From the IMG/VR virus record IMGVR_UViG_3300027833_000012, positions 48,257 through 112,256 of that record: a stretch of 64,000 bases of DNA; one strand, given 5' to 3'. The notes under the pieces are model-generated. The model ran no database searches. It was not told where the DNA came from and saw only the letters and a list, made by a program, of their open reading frames with translations. This DNA comes from a virus (taxonomy: Duplodnaviria > Heunggongvirae > Uroviricota > Caudoviricetes). Below, piece after piece: positions 289 to 28,227 of this stretch; within the stretch, counting starts at the first letter, position 1, and every line of letters starts with the position of its first letter. Both the position numbers and the translations under genes were made by a program.

Positions 289-1323
289 TTAAAGTGCTTC
301 TTGCTCAAAGAAATATTCTCTAGCATATTGTGACACATATTTATTAATTTCTTTTGGTTCAAGACCAGCATCAGATATTATATCTAAATCTTCATCCATA
401 ATATCTTTAATTACTAACCTTATATAAGTTGAAAGATGTTTTCTATTAATATCTTCACCATTCTTAGTTACTTCATTAAACATTTGGCTTAATCTCCATA
501 CTGGAGTTACCTTACCAGCAACATCAATTATCTTCTGAAGTTTTTCATTATCAACCTTCTTAATCTTTTTTATCTTAGATTTACCAGCATGTCTATCATC
601 CTTAGTCTTAAATCTATGCATCGTACCTTTATACTCAACTGACCAAACTAGTCCTTCACCAATTCCGCTTGAACCAAAATGTTTTGCAACTGGACATTCA
701 TCACCTATTGCTGTGGTTAACTCCACAAACTTATTTTGAGCCATCTGAGGCACGTTAAAATCAACAGACACCTCGTAAGTCGGAAATTCATTTATGTTCC
801 AAATTTTATCGTTATTTTCAAACCTATAGTCCTCGAAAGGTAACCAGTAGTTAACAAAATCTGGATTAGATGGTTCAGAAACCTTAACACCAAACATGTA
901 GAATGCTTTTTCCAAATTAGCAATAGCGACATTTTTTTGAATACTACCACCAGCCCACTCACCATATACTGATATAGTGTATTTATCGGTATCAATATTG
1001 TTGTCATCACTTATTTTATTTATTAAACTTGTAAAATCAACTTTATTAGTTTCTACAAAAAAAGCGAAACCAGCATTGTCTTTCTCAAGTGTTATTACTT
1101 TTTCTCTAGATTGTGCCCATAAACCATCTTTTGAGTTATAACAAACTCCAGCATTAGTACCATGTATTTTAACGGTACCTTTGAAAATTAAGGTTGGTTT
1201 TTTAACTGTAGGGTCATAAATAGCATCACCATTTTCGTCTAAACCAACGAATGATATCATTCTACTTATGTTAGATACAACATTTCTAAATTGTGGTATC
1301 TTAGGGTAACTAATATGTTTCAT
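289..1323 (-). CDS. RNA ligase 2 (Rnl2-like nucleotidyltransferase)
   Basis: Motif I KIHGTN (identical to T4 Rnl2 lysine-adenylate motif); motif IV EGLVWS; motif V FKTK; about 344 aa like T4 Rnl2. Confidence 0.8.
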   Translation of the reverse strand: MKHISYPKIPQFRNVVSNISRMISFVGLDENGDAIYDPTVKKPTLIFKGTVKIHGTNAGVCYNSKDGLWAQSREKVITLEKDNAGFAFFVETNKVDFTSLINKISDDNNIDTDKYTISVYGEWAGGSIQKNVAIANLEKAFYMFGVKVSEPSNPDFVNYWLPFEDYRFENNDKIWNINEFPTYEVSVDFNVPQMAQNKFVELTTAIGDECPVAKHFGSSGIGEGLVWSVEYKGTMHRFKTKDDRHAGKSKIKKIKKVDNEKLQKIIDVAGKVTPVWRLSQMFNEVTKNGEDINRKHLSTYIRLVIKDIMDEDLDIISDAGLEPKEINKYVSQYAREYFFEQEAL

Positions 1324-1357
1324 ATTTTTATTATTTAATTGTTAAAGTACAAAGATA

Positions 1358-1399
1358 TAAAAAAAAAGGTTATAAAACAACTTTATAACCTTTTTTTTT
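1358..1399. terminator. bidirectional hairpin terminator
   Basis: A9-ggttataaaacaactttataacc-T9. Confidence 0.6.
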
Positions 1400-1619
1400 A
1401 AAATTTCCTATTATCTTCTACAAATAAGTTTGGGTTCTCTTTAATCCAACTTATTAAGTATTCTTGCAACATTGGTGGAATTGGAACTCCTTCCATATAT
1501 AACACTCCACCCACAATGTGAAATGTTTGACCATTTATGAAATTAAGTGTCCCATTATATCCAGGGATATTTAATACCATCTTATGTTTTAACCTATAAA
1601 CTCTATCTATCATATTCAT
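1398..1619 (-). CDS. hypothetical protein
   Basis: 73-aa ORF. Confidence 0.35.
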   Translation of the reverse strand: MNMIDRVYRLKHKMVLNIPGYNGTLNFINGQTFHIVGGVLYMEGVPIPPMLQEYLISWIKENPNLFVEDNRKF

Positions 1620-1637
1620 ATCAACTTATATTATTTT

Positions 1638-2969: not shown

Positions 2970-4487
2970 TTATATTAATTTATTAAGTCCTTTAGCTGAT
3001 GAATCAATTTCTAAACATTCTTCGAATGAATTTGCAGTAACTTTATCATCCCTTAAGTTTTTTAAGCAAGGGTATAATACTGAATGACCACCATTTCTAT
3101 TACTAGATAAACCATTACACTTTACCTCGATTATAGTACCTAACAATGTTTCTTGATTATCTGTAATATATTCCATTAAATCTTCTGGTATTCCTTGTGC
3201 TTTTGTACTCAATTTACCACAAGAACTTTCACAAGTAACACTAGATATAACATTCTCATTCTTAGTACCTTCACTACCGTAATTGAATTCTACTATTTTT
3301 AAATCTAAGTCAAATTCAACTTTCATTTTAATCTGATAATTTGGTTTACCATTTTTCCAAACACCATCTAATGATTTTAATACAGTACCTTCTTCACCCT
3401 TACTTAACATATCACTAAAATGGTTTAAAGCTTCAGCATATGTACTTATGAATTTAAATTCAACCATAGAAATCATTTCATAATCATTTAAATCTAAGTT
3501 AAACTTCAACCAGTTTAACCTTTCTAATCTAGGTCTTTTACAAATATTAGTGTAATATTCATCAACTCCTATAATATCCCAAACTATAAATCTAATCCTA
3601 TCTAATAATTCAGAATAAACAAGACCATGTTTTTTAAACATATTGTCAATGGATTTAGTAGCAGCCTTATTATCTTTTTCTAAGTCAGAATTTAACTTTT
3701 TAGTTATATTAATTATACTTGTAATTAAACCGTTAGATGTTTCTCTTTTTATCCCATCAATTACTAGCTCCCCATTTAATACACAATCATTAAATGTTGA
3801 TAATTCGGTTAGTAGTTTACCACCACCTAATAATGTTTCTTCACCTTGTCTTGAAACTAGTTCTAATTCACCACTTCTAATTATAGCATTACAGTATCTA
3901 CCATCGGCCTTAACTTCAGAAATTGCCTTAACATCACCATTATAATTAGGGTCTAACTTATGGATTAAAATTTCATCCATGTCGGTAATATCTTTAACTT
4001 TATCAAATATAGCTTCAACTTTTTTACTGTTGAAAGATATTGCACCCATATAATGAGTTTTTTCAATAAGTTTTGGGAAAACCTTATTAATGTTAGATGT
4101 TCCCATACCTATTTTTAAATCCTTCTTTATTATTCTTTCTAGAACAATAGCATCATCCTTATGTGAATAAGTTAATAACTTTTTAAGATATTCAATTGCA
4201 GAATTACCAGTTAATTCTCTATCGTAAAATGTTGATAATTTAGCCAGTAATTGTGGCATTGTATAAGCATCTACTGGGTTATATATTGTCTCATATTCTG
4301 GGATTTGTTTTATAAAAAACTTAATCCTTTTTGATTTAGCATAGTATAACGCTTCAGTTAAGTAAGGTGTATTTTTATACTTTCTAAGTATGTCCATCTT
4401 TGCGTTAGAACCACTTTCATTTGAAATTTCGTCAAATATTTCTTTTATTCTCATGTAATTAATTTTATTTTTTAGCAAGATACTCAC
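2970..4487 (-). CDS. ATP-dependent DNA ligase (T4 gp30-like)
   Basis: Motif I KADGRY matches T4 ligase KADGAR; 505 aa versus 487 aa in T4. Confidence 0.8.
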   Translation of the reverse strand: MSILLKNKINYMRIKEIFDEISNESGSNAKMDILRKYKNTPYLTEALYYAKSKRIKFFIKQIPEYETIYNPVDAYTMPQLLAKLSTFYDRELTGNSAIEYLKKLLTYSHKDDAIVLERIIKKDLKIGMGTSNINKVFPKLIEKTHYMGAISFNSKKVEAIFDKVKDITDMDEILIHKLDPNYNGDVKAISEVKADGRYCNAIIRSGELELVSRQGEETLLGGGKLLTELSTFNDCVLNGELVIDGIKRETSNGLITSIINITKKLNSDLEKDNKAATKSIDNMFKKHGLVYSELLDRIRFIVWDIIGVDEYYTNICKRPRLERLNWLKFNLDLNDYEMISMVEFKFISTYAEALNHFSDMLSKGEEGTVLKSLDGVWKNGKPNYQIKMKVEFDLDLKIVEFNYGSEGTKNENVISSVTCESSCGKLSTKAQGIPEDLMEYITDNQETLLGTIIEVKCNGLSSNRNGGHSVLYPCLKNLRDDKVTANSFEECLEIDSSAKGLNKLI

Positions 4488-5253
4488 GATTCCTACCCAT
4501 ATGTTCTGGGTATAATAAGTAAAGTGGTTCAGATTGTGTTATTTCTTTAGTGTCAATATTCATTATAGATAACTTACCACTATATGTTGCACCAGTGTCC
4601 ATATTCCACACATTACCAATATTTATTGGTTTGTCATCATTGTAGTTAATTGTTGGGGTGTGACCTATATAAATTTCTTTATATTGTCCCCATATTACAC
4701 CCACCTTTTCAAAGTTACGTTGTTCAATCATATAACCCCAGAATGACCTATCCCAATAGAATGTTGCATTTTCACCTTTTTTAGTTTGACCAACATCCAT
4801 ATGATACTGTTTATCCATAGCAACCCTTGGATTAAAACCAGCATGTACGAACACCCTATTATCTTCATCAATATAATATTCTAATGCATTAGTTAAAAAT
4901 TCTAAATGAACGTTTAACATTTCCTCAGATTTATTAAAATAACTATCATATGTTTCTTTACCACCTTGACTATACCATAAATGGTTTTCTGAAGTTGGAC
5001 CCGTTTTAAGTGCGTCACGTAAAAACCTTTCAGTCCATTCATCATGATTACCCTTTAAATAAACCAATTTCTTGATTTTAATTAACTCTTCTATAACTTC
5101 AGCTGTCTCTGGCCAACCATCTGTAGCATCACCTAGGGCAATTAGCTTATCATTATCGTAATCAAAACTAACCTTTTCTAGTACTTGAATAAATGCCTTA
5201 TAACCACCATGAATATCCCCTATACAAAACGTTCTACTTATATTATTTTTCAT
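4465..5253 (-). CDS. calcineurin-like metallophosphoesterase (lambda-phosphatase/PnkP-phosphatase family)
   Basis: GDIHG, GDATDGW (GDxxDRG) and GNHDE motifs. Confidence 0.8.
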   Translation of the reverse strand: MKNNISRTFCIGDIHGGYKAFIQVLEKVSFDYDNDKLIALGDATDGWPETAEVIEELIKIKKLVYLKGNHDEWTERFLRDALKTGPTSENHLWYSQGGKETYDSYFNKSEEMLNVHLEFLTNALEYYIDEDNRVFVHAGFNPRVAMDKQYHMDVGQTKKGENATFYWDRSFWGYMIEQRNFEKVGVIWGQYKEIYIGHTPTINYNDDKPINIGNVWNMDTGATYSGKLSIMNIDTKEITQSEPLYLLYPEHMGRNREYLAKK

Positions 5254-5254
5254 G

Positions 5255-5740
5255 TTATTGTAATAATGTTGTTAAATGGTCCCACATTGGTTGTGCACTA
5301 GATGGTGAAGCTTCATATAAAGCTTCTCTAAATTCAGCATATTCTGTCTTATACATATCAATTTTACCACCCATCTCTACGTTTGCAATTCTATCTGCTA
5401 ATTTTAATATAATAGCGTCTGGTATACTAGCAGTCTTAGGTAAAGTTTTTAGTTTTTTTTCTCTTCTGGACCTACCTAATTCATCAGTCACACCATAAAC
5501 CATTTCAGCTACATCAAGCCCAAAATATTTATTTATTTTGTTGTAAGATAAGTCTGTATCTTCTAGCGTATCATGTAAATAACCACCAATAATATACTTA
5601 CCATGATGTCCGAATTTTTTTAAAACTTCAACAACATCATCCAAGTGTTTCCAATAAGGGTATATATCCGAATACGTCTTATTACCATGAGCTTTTATGG
5701 CTACTAACCTAGCTTCTTCATAAATTTTTACTGTATACAT
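5255..5740 (-). CDS. HD-domain hydrolase, RelA/SpoT-like (p)ppGpp hydrolase fold
   Basis: GYLHDTLEDTD resembles the RelA/SpoT HD motif LHDVIEDT. Confidence 0.55.
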   Translation of the reverse strand: MYTVKIYEEARLVAIKAHGNKTYSDIYPYWKHLDDVVEVLKKFGHHGKYIIGGYLHDTLEDTDLSYNKINKYFGLDVAEMVYGVTDELGRSRREKKLKTLPKTASIPDAIILKLADRIANVEMGGKIDMYKTEYAEFREALYEASPSSAQPMWDHLTTLLQ

Positions 5741-6710: not shown

Positions 6711-7043
6711 TTATTTCTTACTTTCTTTTTTAATCCCTAAGTAAGTTCCAACAGAACCACCAATAATAAATGCTAATATCGGTAAAGGTTGACCCTCGGT
6801 TATTGAATTCATACCAAAGGTCATTGATACTAGCCATGTTATACCAATACCATTACCAGTTATTATCGTAGCTAACATTCTTCTTTCCGAAGTATATATA
6901 ACATTTAATGTTCTCAAATAAATAAAAATTATCTGAGATGCTAAAATAACCAGTGCTGAATAATATTGATTTTCAAGTATTTCAGTAAAATCTACCATGA
7001 TATTATATTTTTTATAAAATGTTATACAATCTCTTATTATCAA
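6711..7043 (-). CDS. small membrane protein
   Basis: 110 aa with three hydrophobic helices. Confidence 0.4.
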   Translation of the reverse strand: MIIRDCITFYKKYNIMVDFTEILENQYYSALVILASQIIFIYLRTLNVIYTSERRMLATIITGNGIGITWLVSMTFGMNSITEGQPLPILAFIIGGSVGTYLGIKKESKK

Positions 7044-8127
7044 GGTTAATCATGTAATCTTCTACTGTATCAACCTTACCATCTTTAAGGTTAAAGAATA
7101 AAGAAGAAAACTCCTTAACATCTCTTTTTGATGTTATTTCAAAAACTTTCATTGCGAACTTTTTTTGTTCACCCTTAGTTATGTTTTTAGGTTTGAATGT
7201 GGTTAATTCTTCCCAAACACTTATTAAGTCTAATGTCAGTTTATCGTAATTCACCTTAAGTCTAGTTATCTCTTCTTTTCTTTCTGGAAAAGCAACTACG
7301 AATTCATCAATTTCATTAGATTTAACTACCTCCATAATACTATGCTCACTAGTCTTAGATTTTAAGTGATGTACCGCAATATATTCTGGATTCTTTAATT
7401 TAACTCTATTAAAATTTGCATCGACAACAACATAACCTTCGTCATACCATGGCATATCTTTAAATGTATTAACTAAAACTCCAGCATTTTTAGCATTCAT
7501 ACTGTATGATTTAACTAATGGTACATTTAAAACTTTTGCAACATCCTTTAATGAATTATAGTCAATTTCCAACAACCCTGACAATCTTCTAGCTGCTAAT
7601 AGTGTTATAGAAGACTCCTTATGTGGTTTAACTACAATATTATAAGGTGTGGTCAATTCGAACATATATACAACACCCTTTGTTAAGGCATCTAAATTCA
7701 TATTTATTTTGTTAGCTGTTTCCCAAAATAAATCATTAAATGTTGTTCCGAATTTATTGTTAACCTCACCATCACCTTCAGCAGTACCAGTTGTTGCTGC
7801 AAACCAAGTTTCTTTATTCCAATCCCAATATAATTGAATCATAGAACCATCTAACTTCTCCAATACGTGTGCAGTATCCCAATCAACTTTAGAAGCTAAT
7901 GATTCTGCATTATTGAAGAATTTTTTAAAAGAAAGTGACATAACTTTCCAAGTTCCCTTTTCCAATATTAAACCTCTACACTCTTGAACTTCCGTTAAAG
8001 ACATGTCAGATTCAATCTGATTGTATTTAATAAGAACTTTATCACCATAGTCTTTAACTTTAAGTTTAAAAGCCTTTTCTACACTATCTATACCGTTTTT
8101 ATTTATGTATTCTACTATCTTTAACAT
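7012..8127 (-). CDS. RNA ligase 1 (T4 RnlA-like)
   Basis: Motif I EKLDGS at about residue 90 (T4 RnlA K99 KEDGSL); 371 aa versus 374 aa in T4 RnlA. Confidence 0.75.
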   Translation of the reverse strand: MLKIVEYINKNGIDSVEKAFKLKVKDYGDKVLIKYNQIESDMSLTEVQECRGLILEKGTWKVMSLSFKKFFNNAESLASKVDWDTAHVLEKLDGSMIQLYWDWNKETWFAATTGTAEGDGEVNNKFGTTFNDLFWETANKINMNLDALTKGVVYMFELTTPYNIVVKPHKESSITLLAARRLSGLLEIDYNSLKDVAKVLNVPLVKSYSMNAKNAGVLVNTFKDMPWYDEGYVVVDANFNRVKLKNPEYIAVHHLKSKTSEHSIMEVVKSNEIDEFVVAFPERKEEITRLKVNYDKLTLDLISVWEELTTFKPKNITKGEQKKFAMKVFEITSKRDVKEFSSLFFNLKDGKVDTVEDYMINLDNKRLYNIL

Positions 8128-19868: not shown

Positions 19869-19940
19869 CGGACATGGAGAATTACGATATCTCGACCCTT
19901 CGGTTAACAACCGAACGCTCTTCCTCTGAGCTACATGTCC
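19869..19940 (-). tRNA. tRNA-Asn (anticodon GUU), copy 2
   Basis: Identical to copy 1. Confidence 0.7.
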
Positions 19941-19948
19941 TAATTTAG

Positions 19949-20034: not shown

Positions 20035-20039
20035 AATTG

Positions 20040-20157: not shown

Positions 20158-20179
20158 ATATCTTTATGAATATAATGTA

Positions 20180-20464: not shown

Positions 20465-20490
20465 ATTACAAAATTTTTACATTACTATGG

Positions 20491-20577
20491 TAGAGAGAAT
20501 GGGACTCGAACCCACACAGCGAATGAACGCTGAACAACTTTCCAAGCTGCTGCAATACCAATTATGCTTACCTCTCT
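20491..20577 (-). tRNA. tRNA-Ser (anticodon GGA), type II
   Basis: Acceptor AGAGAGG/UCUCUCU; anticodon arm GCAGC-UUGGAAA-GUUGU; variable arm CAGCG-UUCAUU-CGCUG; T arm GUGGG-UUCGAGU-CCCAU. Confidence 0.7.
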
Positions 20578-20696
20578 ATTTACGAGTTCTTAGTTAATAC
20601 CGAAGTATATTCTGGTGTTACTCGCCTTATATGTCACCTACTATTATTCGGTCACATACGTCACTAACCCTAAGATTAGTTGTTTATCGTACAAAA

Positions 20697-20774
20697 AGTC
20701 AAGGTAGTAGATAGAGTAATCGAAACCCATGGTGTAACCCATCCCTGGGTTTCAAGCCCAGTTTGTCACCTTGA
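20697..20774 (+). ncRNA. tRNA-like element with aberrant topology
   Basis: 7-bp GUCAAGG...CCUUGAC closing stem and T-arm-like CUGGG-UUUCAAG-CCCAG, with 7 extra nt between T arm and acceptor. Long internal hairpin GAAACCCA...UGGGUUUC. Strand uncertain. Confidence 0.25.
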
Positions 20775-20792
20775 CGGTACCTACTAATTTTG

Positions 20793-20885
20793 CGGAAGAA
20801 GTGGGATTCGAACCCACACGGCTTTTTACACCCCTTCGTTTTCAAGACGAGCACTGTTACCCAGAATCTTTCAGTTTATTCTTCC
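20793..20885 (-). tRNA. tRNA-Ser (anticodon UGA), type II with enlarged D loop
   Basis: Acceptor GGAAGAA/UUCUUCC; anticodon arm UCGU-CUUGAAA-ACGA; long variable arm; T arm GUGGG-UUCGAAU-CCCAC. Confidence 0.6.
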
Positions 20886-20898
20886 TTATTTTATTTCG

Positions 20899-20970
20899 CA
20901 CGTCATCCAAGATTCGAACTCGGAGCCTTCGGGTTGGAGCCGAAAATGTTAGCCGTTACACCAATGACGT
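20899..20970 (-). tRNA. tRNA-Trp (anticodon CCA)
   Basis: ACGUCAU-UG-GUGU-AACGGCUA-ACAU-U-UUCGG-CUCCAAC-CCGAA-GGCU-CCGAG-UUCGAAU-CUUGG-AUGACGU. Confidence 0.8.
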
Positions 20971-21049
20971 GTGTTTTAATTTTAATATGTCAATGAACTT
21001 TCTTTCATAAACCCCGACTGACTGTACAGTCGAGGTAAATATCATTATG

Positions 21050-21123
21050 TCAACCGTATGGGAATCGAACCCATGTTACTCGTTTCACAGACGAGCCACC
21101 TTTCCAATTTGGTGCAACGGAGG
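21050..21123 (-). tRNA. tRNA-His-like (anticodon GUG), imperfect acceptor
   Basis: D arm CACC/GGUG; anticodon arm CUCGU-CUGUGAA-ACGAG; T arm AUGGG-UUCGAUU-CCCAU. The acceptor CCUCCGU/ACGGUUG has two pyrimidine-pyrimidine mismatches. Confidence 0.5.
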
Positions 21124-21168
21124 GATGTTGAGTGAGGTTTTTACATTCACTTTATTTTGGGTGTTACC

Positions 21169-21241
21169 ACGGTATCGAGCCGAGTTCTTCAGATTCACAG
21201 TCTGACGCTTCACCTTAAAGCTTGAAACACCATATTTAATT
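21169..21241 (-). tRNA. second GUG-loop tRNA-like gene with degenerate T arm
   Basis: Anticodon arm UCAGA-CUGUGAA-UCUGA at canonical 27-43; acceptor 6/7; T loop CUCGAUA with a mismatched stem. Confidence 0.4.
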
Positions 21242-22197: not shown

Positions 22198-22310
22198 AAT
22201 TTCTTTTTTTTAATTTATTAATTTTAAGTATAAAAGCTCAAGGCTTTAACATTGCTGTTTGGAAAATATACTTTATGGACCTCTGGTGTAAACCTAAGTG
22301 TTTTTCATAG

Positions 22311-22672
22311 TTACTGATTTTTATTAGTTAAATTATTTGTATTACCTAGTAGTGGTAATGAACTTACTAACTTTCTAGTCAATTCTGTAGGTTCAAATGC
22401 TACTGCTGTTATTTGGTCCCCTATATCGGGTTCTCTAAATACTGTATGGTTTATTCCCTTTACGTCAGCTTTTTCTATTAATTTTTCTAAGGATGCTTCA
22501 TCCTTTGCTGTTAGGAATATTAAATAATTCGATGTTGTATTCCAATCTTTAGCGTCTATCGGATTTTCTAATATGTAATCTGCGACTGCATGTCCACTTT
22601 GGACTGCTTGATATCCGATTGGAAGGTCTTTTCTTGTAACTACTGTTAACTTTTTGTTTTTAATCTAAGTCA
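22311..22672 (-). CDS. peptidyl-tRNA hydrolase, PTH2 family (not in ORF track; in-frame TAG at codon 3)
   Basis: ATG(22672-22670) ACT TAG(22666-22664), then an uninterrupted frame IKNKKLTVVTRKDLPIGYQAVQSGHAVADY...TAVAFEP matching the PTH2 core (VVRTDL, GKxAAQxxHA). The frame has no internal Met, so a Met-dependent ORF caller missed it. Confidence 0.6.
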
Positions 22673-22704
22673 TAACTTCTTAATTTATTTATTATTAATT
22701 TATC

Positions 22705-22781
22705 TGGTGCGAATAGTGGGAATCGAACCCACTACATCCGAGTTTAGAAGTCGGTACCCCAACCATTAGGGTCTTACTCGC
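22705..22781 (-). tRNA. candidate amber-suppressor tRNA (anticodon CUA) with encoded CCA
   Basis: GCGAGUA acceptor pairs UAUUCGC, then A and CCA. D arm CCC/GGG with G18G19. Anticodon stem CCGA/UCGG plus C-C closing pair and 7-nt loop UUCUAAA: U33, CUA at 34-36, A37 A38, as in supF-type loops. T arm GUGGG-UUCGAUU-CCCAC. Confidence 0.55.
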
Positions 22782-23526: not shown

Positions 23527-24813
23527 TTATTCTATTAAACCTGGGTTATATGAATTTGCTAAACGTTCTAGTTCATTTGCGTATTCTGGTATTATAATTT
23601 TCATAATATTAATATCTCCTTTAGGTATTATATTATTAAGACTAGTAGAAAGTAACTGAATTGCCTTATCCTCATCACCATCCACCATATCCATCCAAAG
23701 ACTTGCATCCTTAGTGTATTTTTTACCTTTAATACTTTTTATACCTCTTAATGCTCTAATTATATGCATATATTTCGATTTATAAGATTTACCTAAAAAA
23801 CCATTTAAATTTTTATCAATTTCTTTATATATTTTAGGTGTATAAATACCCTTAGTTTCGGATACAAACATATCAATACCCATTTTTTCAATAATATATT
23901 TCAAAGTCTCATATCTACCTTCAACTAAAACATGTCTATATATATCATCATTAATATCAGTACTTCTTATTTTTTCAAGTATTTCACTATCTGAGATATC
24001 TGATAAATCTTTTTTACTAATATTATTTACTTCTTCATGATATGTATCACTCCATTGTTCTATAAATTTAGAGAACTCTATATTATATGAACCATACATA
24101 TCAATTGGTGCTTTTATTTTTTTATCAGTACATAACACACCAACTACATACCTAGAAATTGGGTCTTGTATATTCCAATCTCCATCCTCAATTAAGTAAA
24201 ATATTACATCACCATCAAGTATTGAATCTCTAATTTGACCAGCACCACCTTCACCATCGTGCTGCCCTTTACTTGTCCAATTAGAATCATCATCTTTTAA
24301 ATCTTTCATATCTCTAAGGTCTTCACAAGATGTTATCCTAGGTTTTGCTGATTTACTAGCTAAATCATGTGGATGTCTCGATACTACAACATATAAATCA
24401 CTTCCTTCATCATTTGAACGATTTAATCTATCTAAGTATGAATTATAATTTTTAAGTAATTTAAAATCTAATTTATTTAATATTTTACTAATTTTAATAT
24501 TTTGATTACTTTTATTATTTTTAGCAATATTTTTATCCATATCAACAATAGAATAATTATATTTTTTAAGCATACTTGAAATATCATTATTTAGTTTTTC
24601 AATATTTTTAACATCAAATTTAAGTTTTGGTGTCTTCCTTGTTGGAGTGATTTGTTTACCAGTCTCCAAATTATAGTATAATCTATATACATTTTTACCA
24701 AAAATATCATCTAATTTACTTTTATCCCAAGTATTCCTTAATTGTTTACTTAAATTTAATGATATACTCTCATTCAAACCTTCCCTTAATAAATTTTGTA
24801 TAAATTTTTTCAT
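23527..24813 (-). CDS. leader-family protein A2 (MKKFIQNLLREGLN...)
   Basis: 428 aa; same leader; body unrelated to A1. Confidence 0.5.
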   Translation of the reverse strand: MKKFIQNLLREGLNESISLNLSKQLRNTWDKSKLDDIFGKNVYRLYYNLETGKQITPTRKTPKLKFDVKNIEKLNNDISSMLKKYNYSIVDMDKNIAKNNKSNQNIKISKILNKLDFKLLKNYNSYLDRLNRSNDEGSDLYVVVSRHPHDLASKSAKPRITSCEDLRDMKDLKDDDSNWTSKGQHDGEGGAGQIRDSILDGDVIFYLIEDGDWNIQDPISRYVVGVLCTDKKIKAPIDMYGSYNIEFSKFIEQWSDTYHEEVNNISKKDLSDISDSEILEKIRSTDINDDIYRHVLVEGRYETLKYIIEKMGIDMFVSETKGIYTPKIYKEIDKNLNGFLGKSYKSKYMHIIRALRGIKSIKGKKYTKDASLWMDMVDGDEDKAIQLLSTSLNNIIPKGDINIMKIIIPEYANELERLANSYNPGLIE

Positions 24814-25928
24814 ATTTCCATAAATTCTGGTACATTTTCACCAGGTGGGTTGTTTTCACTAACATATTTTATTAATTCTTTAAAATAATCTTCTAATTCT
24901 CTTTGATTATCTTCTTCACCATTTATGTCTTTTATTAATTTACTTGTTAAAACACTAACTGTTTCATTGTTTAAATTATTAGTAAGTTTTAATAAATCAC
25001 TAACATCAACTCTAAAATGATAATCACGTCTACTTTCGTATTCATTCATTAAGAAAATAACATAAACATCATCTAAAGTTAATTCATTAACATTAACATC
25101 TTCCTTGACCTCATAACCACTTACGTATAAAAGTTTTAATGAATCAATAAAATCTTCATTAATTTTTTCTTTTTTTACATCATTATATAAGTAATTTTGT
25201 AAATTACTTATATTATCAACGCTAATTATTTCATCAAAACCTTCACTTTTAGAAGGTTGTTCGTATGATTTAAACATTCTATCAAAAGCTTGTGGTGGTA
25301 TTGTTTTTGATTTACCCATTCGTTTAGCTGATTCTGCTCTATTATTTGCCACTTGTTTAATTAATTCTTCAGAACCTTTAAATTTAAAATCAACAGCAAT
25401 TTTAATATAATCACCTTCATTACCTTCGATTGCTTTTAATGCTCCTTTTCTTGAACCAGAATTCATATTAGTCATATCCACTACTATCACTTTACCACTA
25501 GGGTGTGCGTCTTTAACCCTTGAATTGAATAAATTTTGAACTTTATTATTTGCATTAATTACTTTATCAAAAACAGTGTCGGCCCATGTCATCCAGCTTG
25601 GTGATTCTATAACAGTACCATATTTTTCGTCAACATCACCTATTTTAGCATCTTCTGGTGGTGTTGAAAATAAATCATCATATGTCCAATTGTAAGTTGA
25701 AGCAACTTCTTCAACAATATCATCTCTACTAATTACATATGAATTAGGGAAATTACTTTTAATCCATGTTGATTTACCTACTGATGGTGGGCCTACTAAA
25801 ACTATTATTTTTCTCTTTTTTAACCCCCCATCTACCTCTTCACGTAAAAGACTATTTTGTTTAATATATCTTTGTTCTGAAAGTATATTAGCTTTCATCA
25901 TATTTTTAAATTTATCTAATTTTCTCAT
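24810..25928 (-). CDS. polynucleotide 5'-kinase (T4 Pnk kinase-domain-like) behind a 30-aa shared leader B
   Basis: VLVGPPSVGKSTW and FPNSYVISRDDIVEE parallel T4 Pnk GCPGSGKSTW and NPGFYNINRDDYRQ; DMTNMN ~ DTNLN; no DxDGT phosphatase domain; leader MRKLDKFKNMMKANILSEQRYIKQNSLLRE. Confidence 0.7.
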   Translation of the reverse strand: MRKLDKFKNMMKANILSEQRYIKQNSLLREEVDGGLKKRKIIVLVGPPSVGKSTWIKSNFPNSYVISRDDIVEEVASTYNWTYDDLFSTPPEDAKIGDVDEKYGTVIESPSWMTWADTVFDKVINANNKVQNLFNSRVKDAHPSGKVIVVDMTNMNSGSRKGALKAIEGNEGDYIKIAVDFKFKGSEELIKQVANNRAESAKRMGKSKTIPPQAFDRMFKSYEQPSKSEGFDEIISVDNISNLQNYLYNDVKKEKINEDFIDSLKLLYVSGYEVKEDVNVNELTLDDVYVIFLMNEYESRRDYHFRVDVSDLLKLTNNLNNETVSVLTSKLIKDINGEEDNQRELEDYFKELIKYVSENNPPGENVPEFMEI

Positions 25929-26002: not shown

Positions 26003-26045
26003 AAACAAAAAAAAACCATACTTAAAATATGGTTTTTTTGTTTTT
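26003..26045. terminator. hairpin plus T-run terminator
   Basis: aaccatacttaaaatatggtt flanked by A-run and T-run. Confidence 0.55.
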
Positions 26046-26052
26046 AATGATA

Positions 26053-26679
26053 TTAATCTCTTTCTGGTGGGTCCATATCTGGACCTTCTGGTAGATAATA
26101 TTCTGAGTGTTCCTCTATATGATTTTCAATAGCATTACGTATTTTACTAAGTGTTTCAGAACTAACCTTAACTTCATGAATTATTTCTTGATTATCGTCA
26201 ATTTTATAGATTTCATGTATATAAAAATACACCTCAAACTCTGGATATTCCTCTGGCTCTTCAAGGGTTGATGCTCTATGACTACCAGACCAAGAACTTT
26301 CGTCATCGATTTTAACCAAATATCTACCACCATCATAAATCCATGGGTATTTATCTTTAGATGTTACATTACCAAAAGCAAAATAATATTCACCATCTTC
26401 TTTAATATAATCTTCTAAATAAACTTTATCGTTATGTATTACATTACCTAATTCATTTTCATTAATCCTTTTTATTTTATTAAAGGTCTTATTAAATGAT
26501 TCGATAAGATTACTTCTATTAACATTTAAATCTGTAACTAATTTTTTTGATGGATTTTCATCAACATCTTTATATTCAATTTCATTATTTTCCCTTAAAA
26601 GACTATTTTGTTTAATATGTCTTTGTTCTGAAAGCATATTAGCTTTCGTAATATTTTTAAATTTATCTAATTTTCTCAT
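26053..26679 (-). CDS. leader-B family protein (MRKLDKFKNITKANMLSEQRHIKQNSLLRE...)
   Basis: First about 30 aa and about 80 nt nearly identical to 24810..25928; body unrelated. Confidence 0.5.
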   Translation of the reverse strand: MRKLDKFKNITKANMLSEQRHIKQNSLLRENNEIEYKDVDENPSKKLVTDLNVNRSNLIESFNKTFNKIKRINENELGNVIHNDKVYLEDYIKEDGEYYFAFGNVTSKDKYPWIYDGGRYLVKIDDESSWSGSHRASTLEEPEEYPEFEVYFYIHEIYKIDDNQEIIHEVKVSSETLSKIRNAIENHIEEHSEYYLPEGPDMDPPERD

Positions 26680-26730
26680 AACTTAATTTTATTATAAATA
26701 TTATTAAAATATTAAAAAAATTATAAATTT

Positions 26731-28227
26731 TTATTTTAAGTGCGGTTTAATTGCGAATGATATATAACATCCTACCATAAATCCAAGTGTTGATGGAATT
26801 GGGAAAACAACATCCTTACCGAACTTTGTCTTATATTTTTCTCTATTAAGTATTAAGCTATCAAATCTTTTAAAGATGTAATATGATAACCCTATTAAAA
26901 TATAGTTACCAGAAGCTACCATTGCAATTGCTAACCCACTTAATAGTCCATGAGTAAAGTTTATAATAGAGTGTTTTGAAACTGTCTTAATAGTTTCGTT
27001 AGCATCCATCATTTTTCTTTCTTTTTCTATAATTTTTTTAATTTTCATTTCTCTTTTTTTTAATTTAGGGTAAATATATGACCTTTTTTTAGTTCTACCA
27101 AATATTTTATCAATAAATTTATCTTTCTCTAACGTTTTGATAACATTACCTAATTCTGGCCCTGGTTTCAAGTCGTATTTCTCTAATACTTCACCCCCAG
27201 TTACTGTTAATTCAAAAACAATGAATGCATTAACAAAATTCTCATCAAGATTAATAAGTTTAGAAAACTTAACAATTTGTTTAGGTGTTAAACCAGACCT
27301 TTTTTGTTCTTTTTTCATAGAAGAAACTTCAAAAATAGATTTATCATTAACAAAGTTAGTAAATAGAATTAAGAATTTAATACCTCTTATTTCCTCACTA
27401 CTATATTTTAATTTATTTAACGTTTTAACAATATTTAAAATATTATTATCACGTAAAAGAACAGTTAACAATAATATTGGGTCACGTTCTTCAATTAAGA
27501 AATTATTGACCATTAACCCTTTAAAGATATCCTTGAATAAGCCAAATTTATTAGTTAAAGTTAAAAAGTGAGTTACTGATTTAGAAGTCTTAAGACCCTT
27601 AAGGAATTCATCTCTAATTCGCTCACCAGAAACACCTTCTAATGAAGAATCTTTAATTAAAGCTTGTTCGGTATCAGTATGAAGGTTTGAACCGAATCTA
27701 CCAGCAAATCTGATTGCCCTTAGTATTCTAAGTCTATCCTCATTAAATCTTTCTTCAGCTTTACCTACTGTTCTTACCACACCGTTTTTAATATCTTCAA
27801 CACCACCCACTAAATCAACGATTTCATTAGTATCTATGTCAAAAAATAGTGCATTAATTGTTAAGTCACGTCTTAATACATCCTTATCAATGGTTGTAAA
27901 TTCTACTGAATCTGGTCTTCTACCAGATGATAGGTCACTTCTGAATGTAGCAATTTCGAATTCATTTGAGTCAGTGAATACGTTAATTACACCGAATGAC
28001 TTACCCGTTGGTAGAGTTCTGATACCAGCTACCTCCATCATTTCTTCTACTTTATCTGGTGTTGCGTCTGTTGCTAAATCCCAATCTTTAATTGGTTTGT
28101 TTAAAATAGAATCACGAACAGCACCACCAACAATGTAAAGTTTAAAACCATTACTTAAGAAAATATCCTTAATGGTTAAAATATCCTTTGGGATTGGTAG
28201 GTTAAATTTAATTCTTTTTGTGTTCAT
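26731..28227 (-). CDS. cca: CCA-adding enzyme / tRNA nucleotidyltransferase (class II) with C-terminal membrane-helix extension
   Basis: YIVGGAVRD (GGxVRD) and DWDLATD motifs; C-terminal about 90 aa hydrophobic. Confidence 0.7.
   Translation of the reverse strand: MNTKRIKFNLPIPKDILTIKDIFLSNGFKLYIVGGAVRDSILNKPIKDWDLATDATPDKVEEMMEVAGIRTLPTGKSFGVINVFTDSNEFEIATFRSDLSSGRRPDSVEFTTIDKDVLRRDLTINALFFDIDTNEIVDLVGGVEDIKNGVVRTVGKAEERFNEDRLRILRAIRFAGRFGSNLHTDTEQALIKDSSLEGVSGERIRDEFLKGLKTSKSVTHFLTLTNKFGLFKDIFKGLMVNNFLIEERDPILLLTVLLRDNNILNIVKTLNKLKYSSEEIRGIKFLILFTNFVNDKSIFEVSSMKKEQKRSGLTPKQIVKFSKLINLDENFVNAFIVFELTVTGGEVLEKYDLKPGPELGNVIKTLEKDKFIDKIFGRTKKRSYIYPKLKKREMKIKKIIEKERKMMDANETIKTVSKHSIINFTHGLLSGLAIAMVASGNYILIGLSYYIFKRFDSLILNREKYKTKFGKDVVFPIPSTLGFMVGCYISFAIKPHLK

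What the first reader, a model, noticed from the sequence alone, without database searches (positions are those of the whole stretch)
289..28227. Unusually complete phage-encoded RNA end-healing/sealing and tRNA maintenance toolkit around the tRNA island
The following are all encoded within 28 kb:
- Rnl2-like ligase (289-1323)
- Rnl1-like ligase (7012-8127)
- kinase-CPD fusion (8561-9622)
- Pnk-type 5'-kinase (24810-25928)
- HAD DxDGV phosphatase abutting the tRNA island (18116-18715)
- calcineurin-type phosphatase of the kind used by PnkP (4465-5253)
- CCA-adding enzyme (26731-28227)
- Pth2 (22311-22672)
- about 20 tRNA or tRNA-like genes and a tmRNA-like RNA

How this compares with known systems:
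- T4 carries Pnk+Rnl1+Rnl2 to undo anticodon-nuclease damage.
- Here both a 3'-OH/2'-OH (Pnk+HAD) route and a Trl1-type 2'-phosphate route (kinase-CPD) appear to be present, plus CCA repair and peptidyl-tRNA recycling.
- This suggests a broad counter-defence against host tRNA-targeting nucleases or translation-arrest systems.
- No Tpt1/KptA-like 2'-phosphotransferase was seen.
Basis: partly seen in the sequence, partly recalled or inferred. Interest (0 to 1): 0.6.

Follow-up and report, generated by a model that had tools for sequence, protein, structure and literature searches.

The report
Phage RNA-repair genes with recoded decoding
An uncultured marine phage carries the already-described phage kit for mending cut tRNAs, but one kit gene is broken by a stop codon plus three bases that ribosomes probably hop over, and another opens with a stop codon that a neighbouring suppressor tRNA probably reads.

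Summary
No Tpt1 was found. This combination is already described for large phages, so the kit is a new member of a known kind.

The surprise is in how two genes are decoded.

1. The kinase-CPD gene is interrupted inside its Walker A motif: CCG TAA CCA GGT. About 36 distinct relatives carry a stop-led gap of 5, 6 or 9 nt at the same site. All have a strong hairpin ending just before a rare CCG codon. Intact relatives lack both. Eight interrupted relatives carry a homing-endonuclease gene directly upstream (fragments remain in two more). This resembles the T4 gene 60 bypass cassette, so short ribosome hopping is the best explanation (not proven).

2. The Pth2 gene begins ATG ACT TAG, 31 nt after a tRNA(CUA). 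In relatives the leader stop matches the nearby suppressor anticodon (TAG with CUA, TAA with UUA).

Both inferences are computational only.

The parts
289..1323 (-). Rnl2-like RNA ligase (344 aa), motif I KIHGTN, motif IV EGLVW, motif V FKTK
   Evidence: PF09414 7e-11; phrog_548 1e-52 over the full length; T4 Rnl2 structure 2hvq E=7e-4; motifs
4465..5253 (-). Calcineurin-type metallophosphoesterase (262 aa), lambda-phosphatase/NinI-like; candidate 3'/2'-phosphate remover
   Evidence: PF00149 8e-12; phrog_246 5e-48 and partial match to the phosphatase part of a 737-aa kinase-phosphatase-ligase PHROG (phrog_8238, 1.6e-7); GDIHG, GDATDG, GNHD motifs. An RNA substrate is inferred, not shown.
5255..5740 (-). 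HD_4 phosphohydrolase (161 aa); lies near kinase-CPD homologues in 22 of 87 related loci
   Evidence: PF13328 2e-11; phrog_990 4e-26; neighbourhood count
7012..8127 (-). Rnl1-like RNA ligase (371 aa), motif I KLDGS, motif IV EGYVV
   Evidence: PF09511 9e-14; phrog_562 2e-44; T4 Rnl1 structures 2c5u/5tt6 about 3e-9; within 10 kb of kinase-CPD in 53 of 87 related loci
8139..8498 (-). Conserved 119-aa helical protein with an acidic tail, between kinase-CPD and Rnl1; function unknown
   Evidence: No Pfam hit; homologues next to kinase-CPD in 40 of 87 related loci; only 2 close relatives in the word-index protein search
8561..9499 (-). Kinase-CPD gene (Pnk-like P-loop kinase plus 2H cyclic phosphodiesterase with HMTI and HITL motifs), in two pieces separated by a 6-nt stop-led gap inside Walker A
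   Evidence: Translation; tRNA_lig_CPD PF08302 6.5e-5, exactly at the cutoff; family profile hits the T4 Pnk kinase domain at 3e-5; AF2 model of the joined product has pLDDT 88 and its best PDB fold match is the fungal Trl1 RNA kinase entry 6u05, then the CNPase 2H domain and T4/Cth Pnk kinases; intact homologues of about 315 aa read MRGIPGSGKST
9402..9435 (-). mRNA hairpin GUCCCUCUCA(N14)UGAGAGGGAU, ending 1 nt before the take-off codon; proposed bypass stimulator
   Evidence: Fold. The 45 nt upstream fold at a mean of -21.7 kcal/mol in 28 interrupted genes against -5.0 in 36 intact ones. 96.7% of cells are paired, with two compensatory pairs and sense-strand G.U pairs; slid controls give 38-65%.
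9392..9400 (-). Recoding site CCG TAA CCA: take-off Pro codon CCG (9398-9400), stop TAA (9395-9397), landing-like CCA (9392-9394); decoding would resume at GGT (9389-9391)
   Evidence: Sequence. Identical in 4 independent assemblies. The same site is interrupted by a 5-, 6- or 9-nt stop-led gap in about 36 distinct relatives. CCG is the take-off codon in 25/28 interrupted against 1/43 intact genes, and accounts for only 6 of 402 Pro codons in the window.
18116..18715 (-). HAD_SAK_2 ('Swiss army knife' RNA-repair) phosphatase, DIDGV motif, next to the tRNA island
   Evidence: PF18143 2e-22; phrog_1818 5e-31; motif
18793..21230 (-). tRNA island: Arg(ACG), Arg(UCU) x2, Ile(GAU), Asn(GUU) x2, Ser(GCU), Ser(GGA), Trp, His, plus tRNA-like genes (one 119-nt with a long insertion; three weak); interspersed small ORFs
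   Evidence: ARAGORN; Rfam tRNA at gathering score for 14 genes in the island plus the suppressor tRNA at 22705-22781 (15 in all), with weaker hits at 20705-20786 and 20794-20885. Only 3 of 17 encode CCA.
22705..22781 (-). Amber suppressor tRNA, anticodon CUA, encoded CCA end, own promoter-like TTG-N19-TAnnTTTG upstream (22815-22845)
   Evidence: ARAGORN; Rfam tRNA 46.6 bits; promoter motif
22309..22673 (-). Pth2-like peptidyl-tRNA hydrolase gene beginning ATG ACT TAG (TAG at 22665-22667), 31 nt downstream of the suppressor tRNA
   Evidence: Translation; PF01981 4e-8. A leader stop 2-5 codons after the ATG occurs in about 25 of about 50 relatives, and the stop type matches the nearby suppressor anticodon.
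24810..25928 (-). Second P-loop kinase (372 aa, AAA_33/Pnk-like N-terminal half, GPPSVGKST); overlaps by 4 nt the start of an unknown 428-aa ORF (23527-24813)
   Evidence: PF13671 1e-8; phrog_505 polynucleotide kinase 2e-10 over the P-loop region only; no PDB sequence hit. The substrate is not established.
26731..28227 (-). CCA-adding-type nucleotidyltransferase (498 aa) with a hydrophobic C-terminal tail
   Evidence: PF01743 9e-37, PF12627 5e-6; GGAVRD; near kinase-CPD in 43 of 87 related loci
   Evidence: ARAGORN; Rfam RF00023 64.5 bits against a gathering score of 47; CLP_protease 1e-57

Best explanation
The window comes from an uncultured marine phage that probably infects Bacteroidota. 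It carries the known large-phage module for tRNA supply and RNA end-healing and sealing.

The module
- The core is a 'split Trl1': an Rnl1-type ligase next to a kinase-CPD healing enzyme.
- Other parts are an Rnl2-type ligase, HAD_SAK_2, metallophosphoesterase and HD phosphoesterases, a second kinase, and a CCA-adding enzyme.
- There are 15-18 tRNA(-like) genes, most without an encoded CCA.
- Inferred chemistry, from family knowledge: the kinase makes the 5'-phosphate, CPD or a phosphatase opens or removes the 2',3'-cyclic phosphate, a ligase seals the break, and the CCA enzyme matures or repairs 3' ends.

Non-standard decoding of kinase-CPD
- The gene was invaded at its Walker A codons by a homing-endonuclease cassette.
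- The cassette brings a replacement first exon that ends in a strong hairpin, a rare CCG Pro codon, a stop codon and 2-3 more bases (TAACCA here).
- The endonuclease gene itself is gone from this strain.
- Proposed mechanism: the ribosome pauses with peptidyl-tRNA(Pro) on CCG and the stop in the A site.
- The hairpin refolds behind the ribosome and the mRNA slides 6 nt.
- tRNA(Pro) re-pairs on CCA and decoding resumes at GGT. The product has a normal GIPGAGKST loop.

Non-standard decoding of Pth2
- Pth2 is made only when the adjacent tRNA(CUA) reads the TAG at codon 3.

Sub-confidences: kit identity about 0.9; cassette origin about 0.85; bypass about 0.6; suppressor gating about 0.6.
For: Kit
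- Family, motif and fold evidence.
- Conserved neighbourhood.
- Literature description of the same combination.
- Host type: 1 of 59 ORFs has a Shine-Dalgarno core, and there are many TTG-N19-TAnnTTTG sites.

The interruption is real
- It is identical in 4 assemblies from different projects.

The interruption is recurrent
- About 36 distinct genes have a gap at the same site. The gaps are 5 nt (TGACA, TGACG, TAACA), 6 nt (TAACCA, TAACTA, TAGCTA, TAGCTT, TAACCT, TGACCA) or 9 nt (TAAATATCA).
- Every gap starts with a stop in the upstream frame. This held in a search that left the gap sequence free.
- The 5-nt form changes frame, so readthrough cannot be the general solution.

The hairpin goes with the interruption
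- Mean folding energy is -21.7 against -5.0 kcal/mol.
- It has compensatory and G.U changes.

Take-off and landing
- The take-off codon is CCG in 25/28 interrupted against 1/43 intact genes, and CCG is 1.5% of Pro codons here.
- Landing triplets (CCA, CUA, CCU, CUU, ACA, ACG, UCA) always allow at least 2 pairs with an NGG anticodon.

Mobile cassette
- Interrupted and intact alleles are interspersed in the tree, with near-identical pairs.
- L061 has a 1-kb insert exactly at the P-loop: old exon remnant, then a NUMOD3 + TnsA-like nuclease ORF, then the new exon.
- That ORF lies upstream in 8 interrupted loci and in 0 of 43 intact loci.
- Old-exon remnants end inside the GxG codons in 7 loci.
- A 99.96%-identical strain variant has the endonuclease C-terminal coding end directly upstream of the exon.

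Precedent
- The T4 gene 60/MobA cassette has the same logic.

Joined product
- It models as a normal kinase-CPD.

Pth2
- 20 TAG leaders with tRNA(CUA) within 4 kb, 2 TAA leaders with tRNA(UUA), and no mismatches.
Against: - There is no protein or RNA data, so the bypass is inferred from sequence alone.
- The 3' arm of the hairpin (ATGAGAGGG) was part of my search patterns. Interrupted genes with other arms would have been missed, and the invariance of those columns is by construction.
- Landing pairing is weak for the 5-nt gaps (ACA/ACG).
- Much of the divergence among interrupted genes probably predates invasion by the mobile cassette. Open downstream ORFs and dN/dS of 0.12-0.34 therefore do not prove selection after the interruption.
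- The TGA forms create a GTGA stop/start overlap that could allow reinitiation.
- The hairpin could serve the endonuclease transcript instead.
- For Pth2, TAG is a normal stop for at least 7 genes in this window, so an efficient suppressor would be costly.
- An ATT follows the TAG in most cases, so a mini-ORF plus reinitiation is possible.
- RNA substrates of the phosphatases and of the second kinase are untested.
Confidence: 0.6

Rival explanations
1. The kinase-CPD gene is simply inactivated. A selfish homing-endonuclease cassette broke the Walker A motif, no full-length protein is made, and the second kinase (24810-25928) covers the 5'-kinase function. The hairpin and stop are features of the mobile element (for example a 3'-end stabiliser of the endonuclease mRNA), not recoding signals.
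For: - The cassette is mobile and many invasions look recent.
- Gene callers predict only a 254-aa product lacking the P-loop.
- A second P-loop kinase exists.
- One relative (L215/L091) seems to have lost the gap and is losing the hairpin, which suggests the gap is costly.
Against: - The element carries a translatable replacement exon with its own ATG. It has the same length and conserved residues as the native N-terminus, and it ends exactly at the Pro codon. A purely destructive insert has no need for this.
- The stop is always in frame with that exon and is kept as a stop through TAA/TAG/TGA changes.
- The rare CCG is kept.
- GxGKST is intact straight after every gap, and no downstream ORF is degraded, even where the endonuclease gene is lost.
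- The allele is fixed in all sampled assemblies of an abundant phage.
Confidence: 0.2
2. The two pieces are expressed without hopping. One route is termination at the stop and reinitiation, giving a split kinase whose 35-40-aa N-terminal fragment complements in trans. The other is stop-codon readthrough (6- and 9-nt gaps) or a -1 frameshift (5-nt gaps), giving a P-loop with extra residues.
For: - The TGA forms have an overlapping GTG (CCGTGACA), and gene callers start there.
- Homing endonucleases are known to split phage genes into two interacting products: MobA with gene 39/60 and MobE with nrdA.
- A 5-nt gap with a -1 shift and a 6-nt gap with readthrough would both add two residues.
Against: - No ATG, GTG or TTG follows the gap in the TAA and TAG forms, including this window. 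The first is 22 codons after the gap (23 after the TAA), past the P-loop.
- No single mechanism of this kind covers 5-, 6- and 9-nt gaps with all three stop codons.
- No sense-codon version of the insertion was found when the gap sequence was left free, so extra residues in Walker A seem not to be tolerated.
- The window has no tRNA with a UUA anticodon to read TAA.
Confidence: 0.1
3. The kit mainly serves the phage's own translation programme, not counter-defence. The CCA enzyme matures CCA-less phage tRNAs. The ligases and healing enzymes process odd or insert-bearing phage tRNAs. Pth2, tmRNA and ClpP clear stalled or read-through ribosomes created by the phage's own stop-codon suppression.
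For: - 14 of 17 tRNA(-like) genes lack an encoded CCA.
- One tRNA-like gene has a long insertion.
- Pth2 is linked to suppressor tRNAs across about 29 of about 50 relatives, with stop and anticodon matching.
- tmRNA and ClpP are adjacent.
- At least some relatives use TAG as Gln inside Pth2 itself (L159 HALR*F against HALRQF).
Against: - It is not exclusive with counter-defence.
- Kinase-CPD with Rnl1 is the classic chemistry for repairing 2',3'-cyclic-phosphate/5'-OH breaks made by anticodon nucleases (family knowledge).
- No global TAG recoding is seen in these 64 kb.
- ClpP could equally be a prohead protease.
Confidence: 0.3

Closest known systems
Jumbo-phage RNA repair and tRNA provisioning systems (Iyer et al. 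2021, PMC7824862; Burroughs & Aravind 2016, cited there as ref. 178)
   Same: Same parts list: tRNA array, Rnl1 and Rnl2 ligases, polynucleotide kinase, 2H phosphoesterase, Swiss-army-knife HAD, CCA-adding enzyme and PTH2. A possible Ro/TROVE-like protein (DUF2828) is a lead from memory only.
   Different: No RtcB, RlaP, Thg1 or KptA/Tpt1 is detected here. The phage has no near relative among sequenced isolates. Two of the genes need non-standard decoding.
T4 Pnkp + Rnl1 (+ Rnl2) anticodon-nuclease repair
   Same: Rnl1- and Rnl2-family ligases have the catalytic lysine motifs. The kinase domain is related to T4 Pnk.
   Different: The healing enzyme is a kinase fused to a 2H cyclic phosphodiesterase, not the kinase-HAD phosphatase of T4 Pnkp. 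The HAD is a separate SAK-type protein.
Fungal/plant tRNA ligase Trl1 (ligase-kinase-CPD) and vertebrate CNPase
   Same: A P-loop kinase followed by a 2H domain with two HxT motifs. The best PDB fold match is Candida Trl1 entry 6u05, then the CNPase catalytic domain. The adjacent ligase is Rnl1-type, as is the Trl1 ligase domain.
   Different: The ligase is a separate gene, with a 119-aa ORF in between. There is no Tpt1 to remove a 2'-phosphate. Kinase nucleotide specificity and end chemistry are untested.
T4 gene 60 / MobA translational bypass cassette (bioRxiv 10.1101/2022.08.31.505936; Atkins et al. 2016, PMC5009743)
   Same: - A homing endonuclease inserts in a conserved coding site.
- The element carries a homologous replacement segment followed by a non-coding gap that starts with a stop right after the take-off codon.
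- There is mRNA structure 5' of the site.
- The endonuclease is often lost while the gap is kept.
- Near-identical genomes exist with and without the element.
   Different: - The target gene is different: the Walker A of an RNA-repair kinase, not topoisomerase.
- The endonuclease family is different: NUMOD3 + TnsA/PD-(D/E)xK-like, not HNH MobA.
- The gap is 5-9 nt, not 50 nt.
- The take-off codon is Pro CCG, not Gly GGA.
- The landing codon is only partly matched.
- The hosts are probably Bacteroidota, which rarely use Shine-Dalgarno pairing.
- The bypass is not shown experimentally.
Synthetic 'stop-hops' in E. coli (Weiss et al. 1987, as summarised in PMC5009743)
   Same: Matched or near-matched codons flank a stop (CCA TAA CCA in L020, CCG TAA CCA here), so that 9 nt would encode one amino acid.
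   Different: Those were engineered, low-efficiency events. The review states that no natural in-frame stop-hop is known.
Stop-codon-recoded phages with suppressor tRNAs (bioRxiv 10.1101/2021.08.26.457843 and related)
   Same: A phage-encoded tRNA(CUA), and an in-frame TAG in a phage gene.
   Different: Here TAG is still used as a stop in at least 7 genes of the window. The only internal TAG found is at codon 3 of Pth2, a position conserved in relatives.

Membership tests
Rnl2-type RNA ligase (T4 Rnl2 family) | Nucleotidyltransferase domain with motif I lysine (KxHGxN), motifs IV and V; family HMM above threshold | tested here: met
   PF09414 42.9 bits against a cutoff of 27; phrog_548 over the full length; KIHGTN, EGLVW, FKTK
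Rnl1-type RNA ligase (T4 Rnl1 family) | Motif I KxDG lysine and the Rnl1-specific domain; family HMM above threshold | tested here: met
   PF09511 52.3 bits against a cutoff of 28.3; T4 Rnl1 structures about 3e-9; KLDGS, EGYVV
Trl1-type healing module (kinase-CPD) | P-loop polynucleotide kinase and 2H phosphoesterase (two HxT/S motifs) in one polypeptide | tested here: inconclusive
   Both domains and both HxT motifs are present, and the fold matches 6u05, CNPase and T4 Pnk. The ORF is broken by TAA inside Walker A, so a single polypeptide requires bypass.
Trl1-type healing module (kinase-CPD) | CPD yields 2'-phosphate/3'-OH, and a Tpt1 partner removes the 2'-phosphate | tested here: not met
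   No PTS_2-RNA (Tpt1/KptA) hit in any window ORF of 55 aa or more. There is only a sub-threshold ART-fold ORF on the + strand at 61748-62488. End chemistry is not testable here.
Programmed translational bypass (gene 60 type) | [quoted passage not shown] | tested here: met
   TAA follows CCG here. A stop follows in all of about 36 interrupted relatives, including a search with the gap sequence left free.
Programmed translational bypass (gene 60 type) | [quoted passage not shown] | tested here: inconclusive
   CCG/CCA here and CCA/CCA in L020. Other forms land on CUA, CUU, CCU, UCA or ACA/ACG, giving only 2 of 3 pairs with an NGG anticodon.
Programmed translational bypass (gene 60 type) | [quoted passage not shown] | tested here: met
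   -21.7 against -5.0 kcal/mol; 96.7% paired with compensatory changes. The 3' arm was part of the search pattern; the 5' arm was not.
Programmed translational bypass (gene 60 type) | Carried by a homing-endonuclease element that also supplies a homologous replacement segment | tested here: met
   A NUMOD3 + TnsA-like ORF lies upstream in 8 interrupted and 0 of 43 intact loci. Old-exon remnants are present, and a strain variant of this phage keeps the ORF's 3' end. The endonuclease gene is absent from the window itself.
Programmed translational bypass (gene 60 type) | A single protein product spanning the gap | not testable with these tools
   Needs mass spectrometry or reporter assays.
HAD_SAK_2 RNA-repair phosphatase | HAD motif I DxDGV and family HMM above threshold | tested here: met
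   PF18143 80.5 bits against a cutoff of 27.5; DIDGV
CCA-adding enzyme (class II nucleotidyltransferase) | PolyA_pol head domain with GGxVRD and the catalytic carboxylates, plus the RNA-binding neck | tested here: met
   PF01743 126.7 bits, PF12627 26.5 bits, GGAVRD. CCA against poly(A) specificity was not tested.
PTH2 peptidyl-tRNA hydrolase | Family HMM above the gathering score over most of the domain | tested here: met
   PF01981 33.9 bits against a cutoff of 23, profile positions 2-104 of 115. Catalytic residues and activity were not tested.
tmRNA | Covariance-model match above the gathering score, with a tag reading frame | tested here: met
   RF00023 64.5 bits against 47, full model length; ARAGORN predicts a tag peptide
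Genome-wide TAG-recoded phage (code 15-like) | Many long ORFs interrupted by in-frame TAG, and TAG not used as a stop | tested here: not met
   Treating TAG as sense barely lengthens ORFs (16822 to 17476 codons). At least 7 genes end in TAG, and the only internal TAG is in Pth2. Only 64 kb of the genome was seen.

The most novel reading that the evidence does not exclude
The Walker A interruption (hairpin, rare CCG, stop, 2-6 more bases) would be a natural, widespread, homing-endonuclease-borne cassette that makes ribosomes hop 5, 6 or 9 nt over a stop codon. That would make it the first natural 'stop-hop', and a second, independently evolved phage bypass system after T4 gene 60. It occurs in Bacteroidota-type phages that lack Shine-Dalgarno signalling. 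In the same phage, a second device gates Pth2 on a suppressor tRNA through a stop codon placed 2-5 codons after the start.
Probability: 0.55. Interest if true: 0.85.

Novelty: new variant of a known kind. Interest (0 to 1): 0.75.

Why it matters
The repair kit itself adds one more uncultured marine example to a described class.

The interruption matters more.
- Efficient translational bypassing has rested on a single family, T4 gene 60. The 2016 review states that natural in-frame stop-hopping is not known.
- This study found about 36 natural variants. They have three gap lengths, three stop codons, a simple hairpin and matched intact controls. That amounts to a mutational series for testing how mRNA refolding, a Pro-stop pause and minimal re-pairing set hop length.
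- It also shows a second case where a homing endonuclease protects itself by splitting its target with untranslatable bases. This suggests a general strategy, and a source of gene-calling errors. All interrupted genes are currently annotated as truncated proteins lacking the P-loop.

The Pth2 and suppressor-tRNA link suggests a testable switch connecting stop-codon suppression to peptidyl-tRNA recycling.

Tried and rejected
- Near relatives among sequenced phages: none. Only short tRNA matches and no cultured phage with this kinase-CPD family.
- Assembly or sequencing error for the TAA: rejected. It is identical in 4 assemblies from different projects.
- Genome-wide TAG, TGA or TAA reassignment: rejected for this window.
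- An ochre suppressor tRNA to read the TAA: none in the window, even at relaxed ARAGORN thresholds.
- A homing endonuclease next to the gene in the window: absent. The upstream gene is a multi-pass membrane DUF7103 protein, and tblastn with the endonuclease gives only noise.
- Readthrough as the general mechanism: rejected, because the 5-nt gaps change frame.
- Reinitiation as the general mechanism: rejected for the TAA and TAG forms, which lack a start codon.
- Tpt1/KptA, RtcB and RlaP: not found.
- Function of the conserved 119-aa neighbour: unresolved. No Pfam hit, only 2 close homologues in the word-index search, and it looks like a small helical protein with an acidic tail.
- dN/dS between interrupted alleles: low (0.12-0.34) but uninformative about selection after invasion, because the cassette is mobile and dS is saturated.
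- An extra 10 kb beyond the window start: no structural genes, so late-gene TAG use could not be checked.
- Literature searches for this recoding site or for the Pth2-suppressor link: nothing found.

Full report
WHAT THE WINDOW IS
- All long ORFs lie on the minus strand and G+C is about 28%.
- No sequenced phage is similar beyond short tRNA matches.
- The same DNA, at least 99.8% identical, recurs in many marine metagenome assemblies: Tara Oceans, JGI, ENA and Logan. It is therefore an abundant uncultured marine phage.
- Only 1 of 59 ORFs of 100 aa or more has a Shine-Dalgarno core. Leaders are A-rich, and about 25 intergenic sites match TTG-N19-TAnnTTTG. From established knowledge of Bacteroidota promoters and initiation, this points to a Bacteroidota host. 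That host assignment is an inference.

CHECK OF THE LISTED PARTS
Confirmed at the stated coordinates:
- Rnl2-like ligase, 289-1323: PF09414; phrog_548 over the full length; KIHGTN.
- Rnl1-like ligase, 7012-8127: PF09511; T4 Rnl1 structures; KLDGS.
- P-loop kinase, 24810-25928: AAA_33, with a polynucleotide-kinase PHROG over the P-loop only.
- HAD_SAK_2, 18116-18715: DIDGV.
- Metallophosphoesterase, 4465-5253: lambda-phosphatase-like, with a partial match to the phosphatase part of a kinase-phosphatase-ligase PHROG.
- CCA-type nucleotidyltransferase, 26731-28227.
These rest.

Corrections:
- The stated Pth2 coordinates give 20 stops. Shifted by one base, 22309-22673 is a PTH2 domain, but its third codon is TAG.
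- The tmRNA is real but lies at 36500-36868, outside the stated span.
- tRNA genes: 12 by ARAGORN, 15 at the Rfam gathering score, plus 3 weak tRNA-like elements.
- No Tpt1, RtcB or RlaP was found in any ORF of 55 aa or more.

Other genes in the window, of possible relevance to translation or RNA quality control: HD_4 phosphohydrolase (5255-5740), ClpP (37297-38034), FKBP (35613-36359) and a DUF2828/DUF7788 protein (41970-43433).

IS THE KIT SPECIAL?
- The genes are a conserved neighbourhood. Around 87 kinase-CPD homologues from IMG/VR contigs, these lie within 10 kb: Rnl1 in 53, CCA enzyme in 43, a 119-aa ORF (window 8139-8498) in 40, DNA ligase in 34, Rnl2 in 31, HD in 22.
- The combination has already been described for jumbo phages by Iyer et al. 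2021.
- The kit is therefore a new member of a known kind.
- The kinase-CPD family profile hits the T4 Pnk kinase domain. An AlphaFold model of the joined protein (pLDDT 88) best matches the fungal Trl1 entry 6u05, then the CNPase 2H domain and the T4 and Clostridium Pnk kinases. With the adjacent Rnl1-type ligase, this looks like a Trl1 split into two genes.
- The repair chemistry is inferred from family knowledge. Nothing here tests it.
- 14 of 17 tRNA(-like) genes lack an encoded CCA, so tRNA maturation is a sufficient role for the CCA enzyme.

THE KINASE-CPD GENE IS INTERRUPTED
- The reading frame runs ...ATG AGA GGG ATA CCG TAA CCA GGT GCT GGT AAG AGT..., that is MRGIP*PGAGKST.
- Intact homologues of about 315 aa, 55-62% identical, read MRGIPGSGKST. 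The window therefore has six extra bases inside Walker A, the first three being a stop.
- After the TAA the first ATG/GTG/TTG is 23 codons downstream, past the P-loop.
- The interruption is identical in four independent assemblies.

THE SAME SITE IS INTERRUPTED IN MANY RELATIVES
- L020 (68% identical) has CCA TAA CCA. L018 and L019 (about 60%) have CCG TGA CA, a 5-nt gap that changes frame.
- Pattern scans of IMG/VR and JGI metagenomes gave about 36 distinct sequences. Gaps were TGACA, TGACG, TAACA, TAACCA, TAACTA, TAGCTA, TAGCTT, TAACCT and TGACCA.
- A scan that left the gap free (0-12 nt, any sequence) found a 9-nt form (TAAATATCA). No gap failed to begin with a stop.
- Removing the gap always restores G[IV]PGxGKST. 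The downstream ORF is open for about 276 codons, or about 156 in kinase-only forms.

A HAIRPIN GOES WITH THE INTERRUPTION
- A hairpin, G[C/U]CCCUCUCA-loop-UGAGAGGG[G/A]U with a 4-bp extension, ends 1-3 nt before the take-off codon.
- The 45 nt upstream fold at a mean of -21.7 kcal/mol in 28 distinct interrupted genes and -5.0 in 36 intact ones.
- Across the 28 sequences, 96.7% of cells pair, against 38-65% in slid controls. Two pairs show compensatory changes (CG/UA and GC/AU), and there are sense-strand G.U pairs.
- Caveat: the 3' arm, ATGAGAGGG, was part of my search patterns. The 5' arm was not.
- The take-off codon is CCG in 25/28 interrupted genes against 1/43 intact ones. CCG accounts for 6 of 402 Pro codons in this window.

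THE INTERRUPTION IS PART OF A MOBILE CASSETTE
- In a tree of the first 100 residues after the P-loop, interrupted and intact alleles are interspersed. Several pairs are nearly identical.
- Comparing L061 (gap) with L093 (intact) shows a 1-kb insertion exactly at the P-loop. It holds the old first exon cut off after MRGIPGA, a 285-aa ORF, then a new first exon ending ...RPSQMLIIMRGVP TAG CTA, followed by GGT GCT GGA AAG.
- The ORF has NUMOD3 motifs and a TnsA-like PD-(D/E)xK nuclease domain, so it is a homing endonuclease.
- It lies upstream in 8 interrupted loci. Scraps remain in 2 more, and it is in none of 43 intact loci.
- Old-exon remnants end 2-9 nt after the Pro codon, inside GGN NNN GG, in 7 loci.
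- In this window the endonuclease gene is absent. A 99.96%-identical strain variant (L011) has the endonuclease's C-terminal coding end (...KIKFTDRYEEKYKQW...) directly upstream of the exon, just before its contig ends.
- One relative (L215/L091) has no gap and a decaying hairpin. It is probably a revertant.

HOW IT MOST LIKELY WORKS
- The architecture parallels the T4 MobA/gene 60 element. There, a homing endonuclease inserts in a conserved site, brings a homologous replacement segment, and follows it with untranslated bases. Those bases stop the enzyme from cutting its own genome, and ribosomes bypass them.
- By analogy, the 5-9 nt here split the endonuclease's target, the Walker A codons. 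This step is inferred.
- The element carries a translatable copy of the N-terminus that ends exactly at the Pro codon. This argues that the copy is meant to be joined to the rest of the protein.
- Only a hop explains gaps of 5, 6 and 9 nt with all three stop codons.
- Proposed steps:
  1. Peptidyl-tRNA(Pro) sits on the rare CCG with a stop in the A site. From my own knowledge, Pro-stop is a slow termination context.
  2. The 3' arm of the hairpin lies inside the ribosome. Its refolding with the exposed 5' arm drives forward sliding, as proposed for gene 60 (preprint 10.1101/2024.12.09.627546, listed; not read in detail).
  3. tRNA(Pro) re-pairs with the last three gap bases: C[C/U]N, UCA or AC[A/G]. 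At least 2 pairs are always possible.
  4. Decoding resumes at GGN.
- None of these steps is shown experimentally.
- Atkins et al. 2016 state that in-frame stop-hopping is known only from synthetic constructs. My literature searches found no report of this site.

PTH2 AND THE SUPPRESSOR tRNA
- The gene starts ATG ACT TAG ATT..., 31 nt after tRNA(CUA). The tRNA has its own promoter-like site.
- Among about 50 distinct Pth2-like genes in IMG/VR contigs, 25 have an ATG, 1-4 sense codons, then a stop, then the domain.
- Of the 23 with TAG, 20 have a tRNA(CUA) within 4 kb. Both genes with TAA have a tRNA(UUA).
- Of 25 genes without a leader stop, only 7 have a suppressor nearby.
- The match between stop type and anticodon suggests that Pth2 synthesis is gated by the suppressor.
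- In this window TAG ends at least 7 genes, and no other internal TAG was found. What else the suppressor decodes is unknown.
- A rival is a two-codon mini-ORF followed by reinitiation at ATT.

LIMITS
- Everything about decoding is inferred from sequence.
- Interrupted genes with a different hairpin arm would have escaped my patterns.
- dN/dS between interrupted alleles (0.12-0.34) is uninformative because the cassette moves horizontally and dS is saturated.
- No cultured phage carries this family.
- The substrates of the second kinase, the phosphatases and the 119-aa partner are unknown.

VERDICT
- The kit is not unusual.
- The value of the locus lies in two candidate recoding devices found while checking it. 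I rate the bypass at about 0.6 and the suppressor gate at about 0.6.

Noticed in passing
window 22309-22781: The Pth2-like gene opens ATG ACT TAG directly downstream of tRNA(CUA). In about 50 relatives the leader stop (TAG or TAA) covaries with a nearby suppressor anticodon (CUA or UUA), which suggests suppressor-gated Pth2 expression. No report was found in the literature search.
   Followed up: partly
window 23008-31128 (ORFs starting at 23499, 24813, 25928, 26679, 28795, 29981, 31128): Seven neighbouring proteins share an N-terminal leader: MKKFIxxLLRE(G/S/E)L, or MRKLDKFKN...SLLRE. They include the second kinase and a GNAT-lysozyme fusion. Kinase-CPD homologues have a similar ILRE leader. 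The L-x-E motif resembles T4-type prohead-protease/capsid-targeting signals (from memory), so these proteins might be packaged and injected.
   Followed up: no
window 20039-20157: A 119-nt tRNA-like gene (Rfam tRNA 42.7 bits) with a long internal insertion. ARAGORN calls it tRNA-Thr(AGU) with a 23-nt intron, but by eye it looks like a type II tRNA with a very long variable region. Two further Ser(UGA)/Sec-like weak tRNA-like elements lie at 20703-20885.
   Followed up: partly
window 26731-28227: The CCA-adding enzyme has about 60 C-terminal residues with two hydrophobic segments, as if membrane-anchored.
   Followed up: no
window 36500-38034: The tmRNA gene has an unusually long predicted tag (26 aa ending VAFA). 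A SLOG/YAcAr-like ORF and a ClpP-family protease follow it. ClpP could degrade tagged proteins or be a prohead protease.
   Followed up: no
window 41970-43433: A 487-aa protein with DUF2828 and DUF7788 domains. From memory this is related to Ro60/TROVE-vWA RNA quality-control proteins; Iyer et al. mention ROT/TROVE in some jumbo phages. No Y-RNA family reached the Rfam gathering score in the whole-window scan; the lenient E-value scan covered only 18600-23000.
   Followed up: no
window 16918-16948, 18083-18113, 18742-18772: An identical 31-nt promoter-like sequence, TTGCACAGTAAATAAATTCTTCTTATATTTG, occurs three times upstream of genes flanking the tRNA island. About 25 TTG-N19-TAnnTTTG sites occur overall.
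   Followed up: no
L011:1-80 and window 9500-9660: Assemblies of this phage break exactly at the start of the recoded exon (L011, L012). One carries the endonuclease 3' end there, which indicates a presence/absence polymorphism of the homing endonuclease in natural populations.
   Followed up: partly
window 61748-62488 (+ strand) and L219:16092-17381: The only sizeable plus-strand ORF has sub-threshold ADP-ribosyltransferase-fold hits (ART-PolyVal, DUF3990). A 429-aa PARP-domain protein lies about 6 kb beyond the window start on the source contig. Neither is a Tpt1 match.
   Followed up: no
window 1638-2957 vs L011: In one strain variant the AAA ATPase gene is split into 216-aa and 89-aa ORFs by a deletion of about 250 nt, so this population carries other structural variants.
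   Followed up: no
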